A stretch of DNA of 22,130 nucleotides, from the IMG/VR virus record IMGVR_UViG_3300006147_000007, one strand, 5' to 3'. The notes under the pieces were generated by a model. It was not told the DNA's origin. It ran no database searches and saw only the letters and a program-made list of their open reading frames with translations. Positions 5,146 through 11,496 of the stretch are shown here, in pieces (the stretch's first letter is position 1; the number at the start of each line of letters is the position of its first letter). The translations under genes were made by a program, and so were the position numbers. Source of the DNA: a virus (taxonomy: Duplodnaviria > Heunggongvirae > Uroviricota > Caudoviricetes).

Positions 5146-5264
5146 AAAATTTTCCTTTCATGAATAATTTTTTTATTATAAATCCTATATGTTTTGTAAA
5201 TTTGTTGGGCTTTTGACGATGAGCCTGGCAACGGAGGTCTATTTGTACTAAACAGACAAAATAA

Positions 5265-5338
5265 TTGCGGAGGCAGGACACGATCCTGCATACTCTTGGG
5301 CATGAACCAAGTGAACTTCCTTTGCTCGTCACTCCGCT
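5265..5338 (-). tRNA. atypical tRNA-like RNA, anticodon CAU (Met/fMet-like, possibly degenerate)
   Basis: AGCGGAG-TGAC-GAGC-AAAGGAA-GTTC-A-CTTGG-TTCATGC-CCAAG-AGTAT-GCAGG-ATCGTGT-CCTGC-CTCCGCA-A. All four stems pair; 1:72 mismatch; no encoded CCA. Confidence 0.7.
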
Positions 5339-5354
5339 ATAATAGTTACAAGAA

Positions 5355-5393
5355 CAAATGACGATACCGCTAGAATAGCAGCACCGCCACCTG
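5355..5393 (-). other. 17-bp G-U-rich RNA hairpin
   Basis: CAGGTGGCGGTGCTGCT-ATTCT-AGCGGTATCGTCATTTG: 17 contiguous pairs, 6 of them G-U, so it folds fully only on the minus strand. Confidence 0.7.
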
Positions 5394-5438
5394 TATAAGA
5401 AATGAATATAAGAATACCTATAATCTTAAATATTTTAA

Positions 5439-5833
5439 TGTAGCTATTACAGCCATGTACAAACCTAATCGTCAATTACACAACACGAATAAAACTTTAT
5501 CATGGATTTTATCAAATTTTAGTAATTATGATTTAAACTTTATAAATAAAGAATTTTGACAAGTGAGTTTTAAGTTTTAAATGCTGAATTTTGAATTTTT
5601 ATCATCATCTGTATTTACATAAATACTATGAGTAATATTTGATTTTAGTTTTACTCAATCTTTATATGTAAATTAATTATCACCATTTGATAAATTAATT
5701 CAATAATGTAATTTTCTATTACATATTCTTTTAGAATATTTAGTAGAAAGCATTAAACTTTCATTTTGTTTTTTACCTATGATGTCCTGCATAGGCGACA
5801 GGATGTAAGTTTTAGGTTTTCGTAATAACTACA
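5439..5833 (-). ncRNA. putative ~395-nt structured ncRNA with repeated heptamers
   Basis: 12-bp end-to-end helix (5822-5833 with 5439-5450), nested helices 5812-5819/5461-5468 and 5807-5814/5490-5497, pseudoknot 5776-5803, several internal hairpins, about 12 AAARYYY heptamers. No long ORF. Confidence 0.65.
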
Positions 5834-5848
5834 ATGTAATACAAAATT

Positions 5849-6481
5849 TTAGAAATCTACTTCAATGAAAGTTGTTGCATTACTTAAAACCAACTGGGAA
5901 TCAATATTACTCTTGAATCCCTCAATATCAGCTTCCAGAGCAAGCATTTTATCAAAAATACCAATTGGATCAATAAATTCATATTCATTTTTAGAACGGT
6001 AGGGCTTCTCGACTGCCTCTTGATCCTCTTTAGAGAGTTGTTTAGTTGAGTCCCTCCCCACTAAAGTAGAGATAAGTTCATCGACTTTATTATCTACTTT
6101 TTTATTTTCTTTATCAATAGTTGCAATGGCAGAAGCATATTGAAGTTTCATTGCATTAAGTAATTCTTCTTCGTATTCGATAGAATTTTTACGTTCAATT
6201 CCCTCTGCTCGCGTCATTGTTTTTTCATTTACAGTAATGATAGTTTCTGCGTTAGACTTAACGATAGCAGACTTTAACGTATTTCTATTTGCGATTAAAT
6301 CGGTAATGGACTGGTGTGATGCTTTTGCGCGTTCATCAAACTCATCTCTACTTACAATACCAACTTTATCGGATGACTTTTTAGTAGCTCCACAAAATTT
6401 AGCATGTTCAATTGCTTTTCGGATTTTTGAATCATACAATTTTAACTCGTTAAGTGCTTCTGTAATACTAATTTTTCTCAT
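5849..6481 (-). CDS. conserved-looking alpha-helical/coiled-coil protein (210 aa), possibly related to DIP1984/DUF6847-like helical hairpins
   Basis: RBS AAGGAGAG; ITEALNELKLYDSKI N-terminus, TMTRAEGIERK middle, IDSQLVLSNATTFIEV C-terminus. Family link is from memory and unverified. Confidence 0.8.
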   Translation of the reverse strand: MRKISITEALNELKLYDSKIRKAIEHAKFCGATKKSSDKVGIVSRDEFDERAKASHQSITDLIANRNTLKSAIVKSNAETIITVNEKTMTRAEGIERKNSIEYEEELLNAMKLQYASAIATIDKENKKVDNKVDELISTLVGRDSTKQLSKEDQEAVEKPYRSKNEYEFIDPIGIFDKMLALEADIEGFKSNIDSQLVLSNATTFIEVDF

Positions 6482-8365: not shown

Positions 8366-9157
8366 TCATATTGCCTTTAATTTTTTATCTTCTAAGAATT
8401 GATCCCAACCTTCAGGTCTTACATGTTTCCATCTTCGATCACTCATAATTCCAGAATAAATATATTTATATGGAATTTTGTATTTTTCTGAAATATCACT
8501 AACACTAATTCCATTAATCATATCAATTTTAACTTTTTCAATTATTTCTTCTGTATATTTTGCTGTTTTCTGCTTACTTCCTTGATTTGCTATTCTACAT
8601 TTTTCTCTATGCTCTTTTGAAATTGGTTTACCTTTTTTAGATTCACTTAAATGTTTTCTATGCTCTTCAGTTTTAACATAACCCTTATGAGACTCTGATA
8701 TAAGTTTTTTAGTCTCTTCGCTATGCCTTTTACCTAGCATATTTATTCTATTTTTCTCACCGATTTTCCTTTTTGATTCATCTGACAGTGGAACCATTTT
8801 ACACTTCTCTCCACCAGTTGTTAGATTAAAACCGTTTTCAAAAGTGTTAAATTCTTTAATATATTTTTGTTCTAACTTGTCTAATGTTTCTTTTGTTATA
8901 TTTTCTTTCTGTATTAACTCAAAACTTTCTATTGGATAAAATTTAAAATTTTCCTCACCATATTTATTCCAAGCATTTTGAAGATAAGTATTTGAATGAT
9001 GATTATTTTTTAAATTCCATTTATGAAATATCCATCTTCTATAAAAGTTTTCATATGTCTGTCCAATATACTTTGTTTTTGTCTTTGTACATTCAATACA
9101 ATATATACCATAGTGCTGACGTTGATATTTAATATCTGTAAAATTTATATCTTGCAT
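8366..9157 (-). CDS. intron-encoded GIY-YIG homing endonuclease with NUMOD3-like repeats
   Basis: YGIYCIEC...KYIGQT motif, ETLDKLEQKYI, repeats KRHSEETKKLISESHKG and EEHRKHLSESKKG. Start set to ATG 9157 after GAGGAGGA. Confidence 0.93.
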   Translation of the reverse strand: MQDINFTDIKYQRQHYGIYCIECTKTKTKYIGQTYENFYRRWIFHKWNLKNNHHSNTYLQNAWNKYGEENFKFYPIESFELIQKENITKETLDKLEQKYIKEFNTFENGFNLTTGGEKCKMVPLSDESKRKIGEKNRINMLGKRHSEETKKLISESHKGYVKTEEHRKHLSESKKGKPISKEHREKCRIANQGSKQKTAKYTEEIIEKVKIDMINGISVSDISEKYKIPYKYIYSGIMSDRRWKHVRPEGWDQFLEDKKLKAI

Positions 9158-9176
9158 TAAATTCCTCCTCATAATT

Positions 9177-9451: not shown

Positions 9452-9588
9452 GGCAACTTAGATTTTCCCTGTTAGCCAGATTATTAATTGTCATTTCCTA
9501 CAACTACTAAGCGTTAATCTGACACCATAGATTTCTATGTTCACTGCATTTGCTTATATACATTACTGTATATAGGGGCTAATATTTA

Positions 9589-11496
9589 ACCCTGAAAAAT
9601 TCTAAGCAACGACGAATAATTTGAATATAATTCTTTTATATCCTCATTAGTTGTATATCTGTTTTCGATGCTTGTTGCTACGTTTGTTATCTCACCGATC
9701 CGGTTATCCCTAGTCATAACTTCATACTCTATGATATTTTCTTTGGTGTATGGTTTTGATTGAGCTGTGACCTTATCCTCTACATCAAGAATAATATGTT
9801 TATCAATTTTAGAATCAATAACTATAGGTTCATCACACAATAAGAAAATGTCTCCATCGCAGTCGGCTCCACCCTGTTGTGGAAGAGATACATCATACAT
9901 ATTAAACATTACAACATCTTGGTCTTTGAAACAGTCAAACCATCTACTGATAATATCATTCTTGGTAATTTTAACTTTGTTTACCTCTGATGGATCTACC
10001 AATGGTGAACGAAGAGAAATAATATCACCACAATCAAAATTACCACTATATATTTCTCTTTCACCCAAGCAACCAACAGGTTCTTCGCCAACTGCATATT
10101 GTAAATATCCAATCATGTCACCGACACCAACATGATAAAAACCTGAGCAATAAATTTTTCCGACTTTTGCTTCGTCAATAGATTTCTTAAGTTTTCGATA
10201 TATAAACTGCTTTACAGCCGGATCTTTCAGCATGACATCATTGATTAAAGCAGCTTCAAGATATTTACTCTCTGGCTCGTATCCATCGGTATCCATGATA
10301 CCCATGAACTTATAAGTGTAAAACTTATCCCCTTTTATTATCTTTTCAAATAGAGCAGTAGTATATTTCGCTAAAGTTATAATTTTCCCATCATTATTAC
10401 TGTCAAGAATATCATAGTTACTTACAGATTTATTTTCATAAGCGTCAATGTATTTTTGATTCCATAGATCCAAACATTGTAAATATTGAAAATTCATTCT
10501 GGTATATTTGTTTAGGTATTTTACGTGATGACTATATTTACTGATCCCAAGTTTGAATTCATATTTCCTAACGGTATTCATATATTCAGTCCAAGCATTA
10601 TCACCGTACTTTTCTTTAAAAATTTTGTGTCCTTTAAACATAGAAATATTCCAAATACAATCAATCATGCTGATAGGGTGCTTTGTACCATAAATATCTG
10701 TAATGTATTCATATCCCCATTCTTTAAGTATCTGCCTAAATGGAACATAAACAGAATATCCCTTAATAAATGGTAAACGAACTTGAGTTCCAATTACATT
10801 ATAATCAAGTCCTAGTTGTGCACTGACATTTTCCATAAAACCATGTTCATGACAGCCGCATCCATCAAAAGGGGAAATTTTCAAATCCTTATATCCCTCT
10901 TCAATTTCTCTTGACTTATACTTTTTTGTTTTGCCAGTCTCTTTATCTACAAATTCCTTTTCTCTTTCAACAACATACTTGATTAGCTGATTTTGCAAAG
11001 TCTTTTCATATTCTCCAATAATTACAATATTTGGCATATAGTCTTTAATCAGAATACAGGAACTAAAAGGTAAACATCTTTGAGCTTCGTACTTTGAAAT
11101 TACACATTTGTCAATTTTAATATCCATTTGTGTAACTATATATAACTCATCAAAAATTGAATCACAAACAAAAGCAGTAATACCATCTTTGCCTTGTGAA
11201 GCAGATTTACCAAAACGCGAATAATGAATACCATTATATATGAAACCAACATCAAGTATATGTCTCAGATATTCTTCCTGTTTAGGATTTTTCTTTGCAA
11301 CCACCAGTAAAATTTCTTTGATATGTGATGAAAAATGTCCACGAAGTCTTTCAATCTGATCAAATAATGGGCAGTTCCCCTGAGCAATCAGAAATTCTTT
11401 TTCGATTTCTGTGGTTCTATCTATGTTTACGTTATAGCTTTGGCGGATAATTTCCTTAATTGGAAGTTTAACTAGCGTATACTGTGTATTATTGAT
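9589..11496 (-). CDS. yonO: YonO-like single-subunit (cellular RdRP-like, two-barrel) RNA polymerase, exon 1 (636 aa)
   Basis: Motifs SPFDG, TQVRLPFIKG, LRSP, catalytic GADCDGD. The frame is open to 11502, 66 codons upstream of the track's GTG. Start proposed at ATC 11496 after GGAGGTGA. Spliced product 876 aa. Confidence 0.88.

What the first reader, a model, noticed from the sequence alone, without database searches (positions are those of the whole stretch)
5439..6481. Candidate protein + large structured ncRNA system: helical protein gene followed by a ~395-nt end-closed RNA
Seen: 15 nt after the stop of the 210-aa helical protein, a minus-strand element begins whose ends pair in nested order. 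P1 is UGUAGUUAUUAC (5833-5822) with GUAAUAGCUACA (5450-5439), 12 bp. P2 is AAACCUAA with UUAGGUUU. P3 is UAAAACUU with AAGUUUUA (P2 and P3 share 5' bases, so they are partly alternative). CCAUG (5505-5501) can pair with CAUGG (5457-5453) as a pseudoknot. Inside are further hairpins (AUAUUCU/AGAAUAU, AUGUAAU/AUUACAU, UUAUCA/UGAUAA, AUUUACAUA/UAUGUAAAU enclosing UGAGUAA/UUACUCA). No long ORF. Inference: a processed ncRNA that partners the upstream protein (RNP scaffold or filament, sponge, or an RNA-antitoxin-like arrangement). I do not recognise it as a named RNA family.
Basis: partly seen in the sequence, partly recalled or inferred. Interest (0 to 1): 0.88.

Follow-up and report, generated by a model that had tools for sequence, protein, structure and literature searches.

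The report
Phage protein with cognate structured RNA
A 395-base folded RNA gene sits right behind a small helical-protein gene in this gut-bacterium phage, and the same uncatalogued protein-plus-RNA pair recurs in very different large phages, including T5 relatives, so it is a real, conserved two-part module whose job is still unknown.

Summary
Window 5439-5833 (minus strand) is a real structured non-coding RNA, 15 nt after the stop of the 210-aa gene (5849-6481).

- **Structure:** the closing stem P1, the CCAUG/CAUGG pseudoknot, a 3' hairpin and a variable-domain hairpin all keep pairing through compensatory or G-U changes.
- **Linkage:** the protein (phrog_1491, mislabelled "tail fiber") has relatives in 723 phage records. 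In 17 of 18 lineages with enough DNA, an RNA of the same plan lies downstream.
- **Shared plan:** P1 of 9-14 bp with a different sequence in each lineage, GAAAAC after P1, a tandem 7-nt repeat array, then AAAAUCC plus a pseudoknot strand whose partner lies 45-50 nt on, just before P1's 3' strand.
- **Homology:** models built without a lineage find that lineage's RNA (E 2.5e-4 to 1.6e-16).
- **Not catalogued:** no Rfam 15 family matches, and I found no paper.
- **Protein:** it folds confidently into an elongated helical structure resembling DUF6847 (PDB 3kdq). A homodimer prediction passed its controls.

Best reading: a stable RNA that partners this protein, in phage tRNA/RNA islands. Binding and function are untested. 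This scan reported the same family earlier on other DNA (T5-like, Bacillus and soil phages).

The parts
5849..6481 (-). Gene for the 210-aa helical protein (phrog_1491 family, widely mislabelled 'tail fiber protein')
   Evidence: PHROG match E 5.9e-60 over the full length. No Pfam, NCBIfam or PADLOC family. tblastn finds it in 723 phage records, and there are 2249 clusters at 50% identity. AF2 model pLDDT 96.1. Best solved match is 3kdq, VIA Z 11.3.
5439..5833 (-). Structured ncRNA, 395 nt, from the first base of P1 to its last
   Evidence: Fold z -3.59. Conserved in 12 distinct close relatives. A model built without any Lachnospiraceae sequence hits window 5444-5603 on the minus strand at E 4.7e-12, the best hit in the whole window. 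No Rfam family.
5822..5833 (-). P1 5' strand (UGUAGUUAUUAC), followed by the family motif GAAAAC
   Evidence: Canonical in 131 of 132 cells among close relatives. In 13 lineages P1 is 9-14 bp with unrelated sequences and almost all canonical pairs.
5439..5450 (-). P1 3' strand (GUAAUAGCUACA)
5812..5819 (-). P2 5' strand (AAACCUAA).
   Evidence: Invariant in close relatives, 90 of 91 cells canonical, no covariation. The pairing is plausible but not proven.
5461..5468 (-). P2 3' strand (UUAGGUUU)
5785..5803 (-). Hairpin CCUG/CAGG
   Evidence: U-A, C-G and U-G at one pair
5602..5784 (-). Variable domain with lineage-specific hairpins and indels
   Evidence: Alignments A2 and A3. RNA length ranges from 321 to 409 nt among close relatives. 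One hairpin has compensatory changes in L003 and L006.
5551..5600 (-). Core of the tandem 7-nt repeat array (about seven units of the type AAAAYUC). Weaker periodicity continues towards 5531.
   Evidence: Invariant U and A recur every 7 columns across 13 sequences from 9 lineages. Mean identity at lag 7 is 0.43 and at lag 14 is 0.40, against 0.22-0.25 at lags 3-5 and 0.305 +/- 0.054 in shuffles, over 15 sequences.
5501..5505 (-). Pseudoknot 5' strand (CCAUG), preceded by the family motif AUAAAAU
5453..5457 (-). Pseudoknot 3' strand (CAUGG), followed by CU and then P1's 3' strand
   Evidence: In 15 sequences the two strands are 5-6 bp and all canonical. They read AUG/CAU, CAGA/UCUG, UGG/CCG, CUAGA/UCUAG, UUG/CAA and others. 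They start 45-50 nt apart in 14 of the 15.
5469..5488 (-). 3' hairpin (UCGU / 12-nt loop / ACGA) inside the pseudoknot
   Evidence: 48 of 48 cells canonical, with two both-sided changes. By eye, a hairpin of different sequence stands at this place in the other lineages.
5356..5392 (-). G-U-rich hairpin of about 15-16 bp followed by a U-rich tract. It is terminator-like and lies between the RNA and the tRNA.
   Evidence: Read. The stem keeps pairing through many changes in L001, L003, L005 and L006. The consensus terminator scan did not list it. In other lineages a canonical terminator hairpin with a U run follows the RNA.
5264..5339 (-). tRNA-Met (CAU) directly downstream. It gives context and is not necessarily part of the module.
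   Evidence: ARAGORN and Rfam tRNA at 34.1 bits. Close relatives carry Asn, Ile, Lys or Met at this spot.

Best explanation
The finding is a two-gene phage module: a gene for a small, elongated, probably dimeric helical protein (phrog_1491), followed on the same strand by a gene for a stable, roughly 300-400-nt structured RNA of an uncatalogued family.

Shown:
- The RNA's ends are locked by a long stem, P1.
- Its 3' part forms a compact pseudoknotted core (pseudoknot plus an enclosed hairpin).
- Between a variable 5' domain and this core lies an array of six to ten tandem 7-nt units.
- The architecture, its conservation and its linkage to the protein gene hold across distant phages.

Inferred:
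- The RNA accumulates as a discrete molecule, bounded by P1 and a following terminator-like hairpin.
- It works together with the protein as a ribonucleoprotein.
- The repeat array is the most likely multivalent binding platform, for this protein or for a host factor.

Guilt by association only: the module sits in or beside phage tRNA/RNA islands, next to tRNAs, a Ro60-like TROVE gene, a T4-type RNA ligase, a ProQ-like gene, and Y-RNA-like and drum RNAs in different phages. I therefore place its action in phage-directed RNA or tRNA metabolism during infection.
For: (1) The RNA is real.
- Covariation and strand-specific G-U pairs occur in P1, the pseudoknot, the 3' hairpin and other hairpins.
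- The fold z-score is -3.59.

(2) The same architecture appears in distant phages.
- P1 is 9-14 bp, differs in sequence in every lineage, and is almost entirely canonical.
- The pseudoknot strands covary and start 45-50 nt apart in 14 of 15 sequences.
- P1's 3' strand starts within 6 nt after the pseudoknot's 3' strand.

(3) Homology is statistically supported. In leave-one-lineage-out nhmmer, the best hit in each of 16 left-out loci falls on the expected RNA, with E from 2.5e-4 to 1.6e-16. For this window E is 4.7e-12.

(4) The RNA is linked to the protein.
- It lies downstream of the protein gene in 13 of 14 phage lineages: the window's group, D-1873, LC76P1, PVP-SE1, phiPsa374, T5_ev219, AR1086-1, Bc431v3, AG74, DU_PP_V, AM1, KLEB27-3 and SNUABM_37.
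- It also lies downstream in all 4 metagenomic lineages with enough DNA.
- In KLEB27-3, three annotated ORFs and a terminator-like hairpin with a U run lie between the gene and the RNA. That argues for a trans-acting RNA and against a 3' UTR.

(5) The heptad periodicity is family-wide.

(6) The protein.
- The AF2 model has pLDDT 96.1.
- The homodimer prediction supports binding but does not show it. The score is 0.70 and the best of 3 controls is 0.01.
- That mark was reached by 20 of 30 proteins solved as pairs of one chain and by 1 of 23 proteins solved as single chains.
- The runs agree in at least 98% of contacts, and the partner's pLDDT is at least 90.

(7) RNA-related neighbours appear repeatedly.
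- tRNA arrays.
- A ProQ-like gene.
- A TROVE gene.
- A T4 Rnl1-type ligase.
- A YrlA-like RNA.
- A drum RNA.
Against: - There are no expression, processing or binding data. Everything rests on comparative sequence analysis.
- A two-fold symmetric dimer does not obviously read direct repeats on a single strand, so the repeat array may bind something else.
- One metagenomic relative (L067) has two tandem RNA copies behind a single protein gene.
- One viral contig (L018) shows only the RNA's 3' half, with an unrelated ORF running into it at the contig end.
- In Aeromonas phage LAh_9 I could not recognise the RNA.
- Conserved gene order alone can also reflect shared regulation.
- My automated P1/pseudoknot detector was unspecific: 117 of 210 shuffles passed. 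The lineage calls therefore rest on manual reading plus the nhmmer test.
Confidence: 0.6

Rival explanations
1. The RNA works on its own, like the ROOL and GOLLD RNAs of phage tRNA islands (for example as a self-assembling RNA particle). The adjacent protein is linked only through co-transcription, or the RNA regulates the protein's synthesis.
For: The genomic setting matches that of ROOL and GOLLD: phage, near tRNAs. No protein partner is known for ROOL. A tandem RNA duplication sits behind one protein gene in L067.
Against: ROOL and GOLLD are not tied to one protein family. Here the same protein family precedes the RNA in 17 of 18 lineages while every other neighbour changes. The RNA is smaller and has a long unstructured repeat array, which suits a binding platform.
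Confidence: 0.17
2. The repeat array is a decoy or sponge for a host RNA-binding factor or nuclease. The phage protein only folds, stabilises or delivers the RNA.
For: There are six to ten evenly spaced single-stranded units with invariant U and A. The predicted two-fold dimer fits direct repeats poorly. Anti-host functions are common in phage early regions (general knowledge).
Against: The family spans hosts from Bacillota to Pseudomonadota, so the target would have to be universal. No candidate was identified and there is no direct evidence.
Confidence: 0.12
3. It is a cis-acting leader, processing or antitermination element for the downstream tRNA gene, or a 3' UTR of the protein's mRNA.
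For: In this window's group a tRNA always follows within about 100 nt. The RNA starts 15 nt after the stop codon.
Against: A terminator-like hairpin separates the RNA from the tRNA. In T5_ev219, phiPsa374, AR1086-1, DU_PP_V and AM1 the next annotated feature is a protein gene, not a tRNA. In KLEB27-3 the RNA lies about 1.5 kb from the protein gene, behind a terminator-like hairpin and three annotated ORFs.
Confidence: 0.05
4. It is a type III toxin-antitoxin-like pair in which the repeat RNA neutralises the protein.
For: A protein gene lies next to an RNA with tandem repeats.
Against: The gene order is reversed relative to ToxIN. The units are 7 nt, not about 36 nt (ToxIN details are from my own knowledge). 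The protein shows no nuclease fold and no PADLOC match. The pair sits in lytic phages such as T5 relatives.
Confidence: 0.03
5. It is a DNA-level element (an origin, packaging site or inverted-repeat mobile element) and not an RNA.
For: 12-bp terminal inverted repeats and AT-rich short repeats.
Against: The helices keep G-U pairs that would be C-A mismatches on the other strand. A pseudoknot covaries. P1 changes sequence completely between lineages while staying paired. There is one copy per genome in the four bacterial genomes checked.
Confidence: 0.02

Closest known systems
ROOL (RF03087) and GOLLD (RF01998) large ornate RNAs
   Same: They are large structured ncRNAs of unknown function, encoded by phages and prophages, typically beside tRNA genes.
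   Different: There is no sequence or structure match: none reached E 10 in the window region, and none reached E 0.1-1 in 12 related loci. This RNA is shorter (about 290-410 nt against about 580 and over 800). It carries a tandem 7-nt array. It travels with one dedicated protein family, whereas no protein partner is known for ROOL.
Ro60 (Rsr) with Y RNAs (YrlA and others)
   Same: A phage or bacterial protein is encoded next to its RNA. The RNA's 5' and 3' ends form a long closing stem. The setting is near tRNAs. In two relatives the module even lies beside a TROVE gene or a YrlA-like RNA.
   Different: The protein is not a TROVE/vWA ring but a 210-aa helical protein. The RNA does not match YrlA. 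There is no tRNA-like domain in the window's copy.
Oligomeric proteins that read evenly spaced short RNA repeats (TRAP with GAG/UAG repeats, HutP with UAG repeats)
   Same: Evenly spaced short single-stranded units with invariant bases suggest multivalent binding by an oligomer. This is an analogy only. The TRAP and HutP details are from my own knowledge and from an earlier scan note.
   Different: The unit is 7 nt. The array is embedded in a large closed RNA and not in an mRNA leader. The protein has another fold and is predicted to be a two-fold dimer, not a ring. No attenuation target is evident.
DUF6847 / DIP1984 family (PDB 3kdq), for the protein
   Same: It is the best structural match. 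VIA-align gives Z 11.3 with 150 of 152 residues aligned, well above the next row at 7.7. Foldseek gives E 9.7e-3. Atlas DUF6847 clusters score TM 0.50 and 0.44.
   Different: The rmsd is 7.5 A at 13% identity. There is no Pfam hit at E 0.01. The profile search against PDB sequences gives E 0.094. DUF6847 proteins are about 150 aa, cellular and of unknown function, so the match says nothing about function.
RAGATH-27 RNA (RF03100)
   Same: The first 85 nt share a short string around CGAAAAC...AAACU with the family consensus.
   Different: The score is 19.2 bits against a gathering score of 76.1, with E 6.5. The family's only helix is not matched. No RAGATH-27 above the cut-off was found in 151 genomes of the family of L002's host.

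Membership tests
ROOL RNA (RF03087) | Match to the Rfam covariance model at or above its gathering score | tested here: not met
   No match at the gathering threshold in the window. No match at E up to 10 in 5150-5950.
ROOL RNA (RF03087) | Phage or prophage location near tRNA genes | tested here: met
   tRNA-Met lies about 100 nt downstream. Phage genes surround it.
GOLLD RNA (RF01998) | Match to the Rfam covariance model at or above its gathering score | tested here: not met
   No match. The RNA is 395 nt, whereas GOLLD RNAs often exceed 800 nt.
RAGATH-27 (RF03100) | Score at or above 76.1 bits, including the family's hairpin | tested here: not met
   19.2 bits, E 6.5, hairpin not matched.
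tmRNA / RNase P RNA / group I intron | Detection by ARAGORN (tmRNA) or by the Rfam models | tested here: not met
   ARAGORN finds only tRNA-Met. No such Rfam match at E up to 10.
Type III toxin-antitoxin (ToxIN-like) | Antitoxin RNA of tandem repeats of about 36 nt upstream of an endoribonuclease toxin gene | tested here: not met
   The RNA lies downstream and the units are 7 nt. The protein has no PADLOC match and no nuclease fold among its structural matches. The defining features are from my own knowledge.
Ro60 / Y RNA | TROVE-domain ring protein as the partner | tested here: not met
   No Pfam family for the 210-aa protein at E 0.01. The model is an elongated helical structure.
phrog_1491 (the protein) | Full-length profile match | tested here: met
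   E 5.9e-60, residues 1-209 on profile positions 2-210 of 211.
Tail fiber protein (the name carried by phrog_1491 and many records) | Similarity to a characterised tail fibre, or placement in a tail gene module | tested here: not met
   No tail-fibre structure appears among the top matches. The neighbours are tRNAs, nucleases and small early genes, not tail genes. The label looks like propagated annotation.
DUF6847 / DIP1984 (PF20935) | Pfam profile match | tested here: not met
   No Pfam hit at E 0.01.
DUF6847 / DIP1984 (PF20935) | Same fold as PDB 3kdq | tested here: inconclusive
   VIA Z 11.3 with 150 residues aligned but rmsd 7.5 A. Foldseek E 9.7e-3, TM 0.42/0.55. For helical models, Z below about 13 may reflect only a common arrangement.
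The protein-linked heptad-array RNA family (unnamed, defined here) | P1 closing stem, heptad array, AAAAUCC plus a pseudoknot strand, its partner 45-50 nt downstream followed by GGCU and P1's 3' strand, located downstream of a phrog_1491 gene | tested here: met
   The leave-one-lineage-out model hits window 5444-5603 at E 4.7e-12.

The most novel reading that the evidence does not exclude
The pair is an undescribed class of viral ribonucleoprotein machine. Several copies of the helical protein dimer assemble on the 7-nt repeat array of a pseudoknot-locked scaffold RNA. The particle then acts on tRNAs or other RNAs of the infected cell, for example by shielding or helping to repair phage and host tRNAs attacked by anticodon nucleases.
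Probability: 0.07. Interest if true: 0.9.

Novelty: new variant of a known kind. Interest (0 to 1): 0.7.

Why it matters
Large structured RNAs of unknown function are rare in bacteria and phages, and each one found so far has led to new biology. This family is widespread: the partner protein occurs in 723 phage records and in 2249 clusters at 50% identity. It is present in relatives of the classic model phage T5, and it comes with a dedicated protein. That gives an immediate handle for pull-downs, structures and genetics.

Three practical consequences follow.
- Hundreds of "tail fiber protein" annotations are probably wrong.
- The roughly 400-bp "empty" gaps behind these genes are RNA genes.
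- The recurring company of tRNAs, Ro60-like, RNA-ligase and ProQ-like genes points to an unexplored layer of phage RNA biology.

Tried and rejected
- **Phage-collection DNA searches:** megablast and blastn of the region found nothing. The RNA is too diverged for DNA search.
- **Own genome:** no genome is held for this window.
- **Rfam:** no family at gathering or E-value thresholds on the window and 12 related loci.
- **RAGATH-27 lead:** dropped. The window scores 19 bits, and no member above the cut-off was found in 151 genomes.
- **Exact-pattern scans:** they also brought chance matches (L010, L013, L016, L017 and most metagenome hits), which nhmmer rejected.
- **Protein alignment as a locus query:** The search for related loci with A4 failed because the alignment is too diverse.
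- **Full-length covariance model:** not built. The alignment exceeds the 400-column limit and a model of this length would exceed the calibration time allowed. I used nhmmer profiles and my own pair counts instead.
- **The count of structure pairs:** not used, to avoid typing a 428-character structure string. Pair counts were computed in Python.
- **Automated detector:** my P1-plus-pseudoknot detector passed 117 of 210 shuffles and was discarded as evidence.
- **Multi-lineage alignment:** MAFFT aligned the 3' half well but not the 5' ends, so P1 across lineages was tabulated by hand.
- **Protein searches:** no PDB sequence relative for the single protein; a weak 8bjw coiled-coil match with the profile (E 0.0011); nothing informative in AlphaFold Swiss-Prot, NCBIfam or PADLOC.
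- **Literature:** seven searches found no description of this RNA or protein. Look-ups in the supplements of two candidate-RNA catalogues gave nothing relevant: none are held for one, and the other gave only an unrelated terminator hairpin. The RNA may still be an unnamed entry in such catalogues.
- **Aeromonas phage LAh_9:** the 605-nt gap did not show the RNA's hallmarks.
Full report
**Setting**

The window is AT-rich (about 30% G+C) and nearly all of its genes lie on the minus strand. It looks like a large temperate phage or phage-plasmid of a Lachnospiraceae host.
- It carries an integrase, an ORF6N regulator and an Mre11/SbcD-like exonuclease.
- It also carries a GIY-YIG homing endonuclease, a dCMP deaminase and two ParB-like genes.
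- One 572-aa protein matches the RdRP family PF05183.

The closest relatives of the target gene lie in Lachnospiraceae, Roseburia and Eubacterium plexicaudatum genomes. The finding covers the 210-aa gene (5849-6481) and the ORF-free stretch behind it. A tRNA-Met gene follows at 5264-5339.

The 395 nt fold better than every one of 100 shuffles, z -3.59.

I collected 12 distinct copies from four bacterial genomes, viral contigs and metagenomes. The proteins are 68-80% identical across the four genome loci. The RNA's first 60 nt or so and last 170 nt or so are almost invariant, and the middle carries indels, giving lengths of 321-409 nt.

Pair counts:
- P1 is canonical in 131 of 132 cells, with U-G/U-A/C-G alternation.
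- The pseudoknot is canonical in 53 of 55 cells, with A-U changing to U-A. L001 has CCUCU/AGAGG.
- The 3' hairpin is canonical in 48 of 48 cells, with two both-sided changes.
- The CCUG/CAGG hairpin shows U-A, C-G and U-G.
- P2 is invariant, so there is no evidence either way.

The many G-U pairs fix the strand: this is minus-strand RNA and not a DNA inverted repeat.

**The key result: the protein and the RNA travel together across distant phages**

tblastn finds the protein in 723 phage records, all below 60% identity. They include T5-like phages of Salmonella, Escherichia and Vibrio, rV5-like phages, and Pseudomonas, Bacillus, Lactococcus, Clostridium and Clostridioides phages. An exhaustive search finds 2249 clusters at 50% identity, almost all of 200-215 aa.

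In each record I opened, the gene is followed by an unannotated gap. The one exception, KLEB27-3, is described below.
- Most gaps are 360-600 nt.
- The gap is 1233 nt in Clostridium phage D-1873.

A profile of the window's RNA hit the gaps of Lysinibacillus phage LC76P1 (E 5.9e-7) and Clostridium phage D-1873 (E 3.8e-5).

Reading the gaps showed one common plan:
1. A closing stem P1 of 9-14 bp, with unrelated sequence in every lineage and almost all pairs canonical.
2. GAAAAC or a close variant right after P1.
3. A variable domain.
4. A tandem 7-nt repeat array.
5. AAAAUCC followed by a 5-6-nt strand. Its complement starts 45-50 nt further on in 14 of 15 sequences.
6. That complement is followed by GGCU and then, within 6 nt, P1's 3' strand.

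The pseudoknot strands read AUG/CAU, CAGA/UCUG, UGG/CCG, UUGGG/CCCGA, CUAGA/UCUAG, UUG/CAA, ACUG/UAGU, CUG/CAG, UAG/CUA and AAG/CUU after the CC/GG pairs. This is compensatory change throughout.

**Statistical test of homology**

I built nhmmer profiles of the last 200 nt, leaving out one lineage at a time, and searched that lineage's whole locus on both strands.
- In all 16 cases the best hit fell on the expected RNA, with E from 2.5e-4 to 1.6e-16.
- For this 22-kb window the best hit was 5444-5603 on the minus strand, at E 4.7e-12.
- That model held no Lachnospiraceae sequence.

**Counting the linkage**

- The RNA lies downstream of the gene in 13 of 14 phage lineages. In Aeromonas phage LAh_9 I could not recognise it.
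- It lies downstream in all four metagenomic lineages with enough DNA.
- A fifth contig ends after the RNA's first 130 nt, which begin with a P1-like strand followed by CGAAAACC.
- In Bacillus phage KLEB27-3 the RNA is about 1.5 kb away, behind a terminator-like hairpin and three annotated ORFs.
- In the Erwinia jumbo phage it follows a Y-RNA-like element.

Several lineages have a hairpin with a U run, resembling an intrinsic terminator, right after P1's 3' strand: AG74, phiPsa374, Bc431v3 and KLEB27-3. In this window a G-U-rich hairpin of 15-16 bp with a U-rich tail (5392-5356) occupies that place and covaries among close relatives. These facts fit an independent, trans-acting stable RNA better than a UTR or a tRNA leader.

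**The repeat array**

The multi-lineage alignment has invariant U and A columns spaced exactly 7 apart over five units. Sequence identity peaks at lags 7 and 14 (0.43 and 0.40). It is 0.22-0.25 at lags 3-5, and shuffles give 0.305 +/- 0.054. This was measured over 15 sequences. In the window the core of the array is 5600-5551. Evenly spaced single-stranded units suggest a multivalent binding platform. What binds them is not known.

**The protein**

No Pfam, NCBIfam or PADLOC family matches. The "tail fiber" name comes only from PHROG and record annotation, and nothing supports it.
- AlphaFold2 with 60 diverse relatives gives pLDDT 96.1: long helices with small sheets at the ends.
- The only solved structure that stands out is 3kdq, a DUF6847/DIP1984 protein of unknown function. 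VIA Z is 11.3 with 150 residues aligned at rmsd 7.5 A, and Foldseek E is 9.7e-3.

The homodimer prediction supports binding but does not show it.
- The score is 0.70 and the best of 3 controls is 0.01.
- That mark was reached by 20 of 30 proteins solved as pairs of one chain and by 1 of 23 proteins solved as single chains.
- The runs agree in at least 98% of contacts, and the partner's pLDDT is at least 90.

A two-fold dimer does not obviously fit direct repeats, which keeps the sponge and RNA-only rivals alive.

**Context and function**

The module sits in or next to tRNA arrays in these phages:
- PVP-SE1, Bc431v3, AG74 and KLEB27-3;
- D-1873, AR1086-1 and AM1;
- the Erwinia jumbo phage and this window.

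Other neighbours in single lineages are a ProQ-like gene, a T4 Rnl1-type RNA ligase, a TROVE/Ro60-like gene, a YrlA-like RNA and a drum RNA. In T5_ev219, D-1873 and this window a metallophosphatase-type (Mre11/SbcD-like) or recombination exonuclease gene follows a few genes downstream.

I therefore place the module in phage RNA or tRNA biology. This is inference from neighbours only.

**Comparison with known systems**

ROOL and GOLLD share the setting (phage, tRNA islands, unknown function). They share neither sequence, size, structure model nor a protein partner. Ro60/Y RNA shares the logic of a protein encoded beside an end-closed RNA but not the protein fold. TRAP and HutP are analogies for reading spaced repeats. 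Type III toxin-antitoxin pairs differ in gene order, repeat size and protein type.

No Rfam 15 family matches in the window or in 12 related loci. Seven literature searches and two supplement look-ups found no description.

**Earlier notes of this scan**

The same family was reported before on other DNA: T5-like phages, a Bacillus phage and a soil phage. A later check on those reports says "part of it fell", without saying which part.
- I therefore avoid "always": exceptions are KLEB27-3, LAh_9 and L018.
- I claim only the one pseudoknot that I could verify.
- I keep the bold functional reading at low odds.

**Verdict**

This is a real, conserved and apparently uncatalogued RNA gene, genetically coupled to a protein of unknown function. 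Partnership as a ribonucleoprotein is the best reading (about 0.6). The function is unknown.

Noticed in passing
window 5264-5339; L001-L006, L018, L028, L033, L036, L037: The tRNA gene right after the RNA's terminator-like hairpin differs between close relatives (Met, Asn, Ile-UAU, Lys) while both flanks stay conserved. It looks as if tRNA cassettes are swapped at one fixed slot.
   Followed up: partly
window 9586-11304 (-): A 572-aa protein matches Pfam RdRP PF05183 (E 2.8e-11) and phrog_8308. To my recollection this is the family of YonO-type single-subunit RNA polymerases of SPbeta-like phages.
   Followed up: no
L018:1-455: In one viral contig only the 3' half of the RNA is present. An unrelated ORF (104 aa visible, no PHROG match) reads into it from the contig end. 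This is either an ORF inserted in the variable domain or a truncated RNA.
   Followed up: partly
L067:2159-2476 and about 2645-2813: One metagenomic relative carries two tandem copies of the RNA behind a single protein gene. nhmmer gives E 7e-16 and 3.4e-14.
   Followed up: partly
L054:5407-5514 (Clostridium phage D-1873): A drum RNA (RF02958, 47.7 bits, above its gathering score of 43) lies in the same unannotated 1.2-kb gap, about 430 nt after the heptad-array RNA.
   Followed up: no
L066:2116-2219 (Erwinia phage pEa_SNUABM_37): A Y-RNA-like element lies between the protein gene and the RNA. It matches YrlA (RF02553) at 41.9 bits and E 3.1e-6, below the gathering score of 69.
   Followed up: no
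L072:1-1053; L070:1-129; L063:803-1099: Genes for a TROVE (Ro60-like) protein, a T4 Rnl1-type RNA ligase and a ProQ-like RNA chaperone lie just upstream of the module in three different lineages.
   Followed up: no
L068: about 2165-2255: The variable domain of one relative's RNA contains what looks like a tRNA 3' half: GGUUCGAAUCC followed by an acceptor-like strand ending in CCA.
   Followed up: no
window 8366-9172 (-): A free-standing GIY-YIG/NUMOD3 homing endonuclease gene lies in the early region.
   Followed up: no
phage records: Many of the 723 records, including RefSeq entries for PVP-SE1, phiPsa374, T5_ev219 and AM1, call this protein 'tail fiber protein'. None of the records opened annotates the RNA behind it.
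   Followed up: partly
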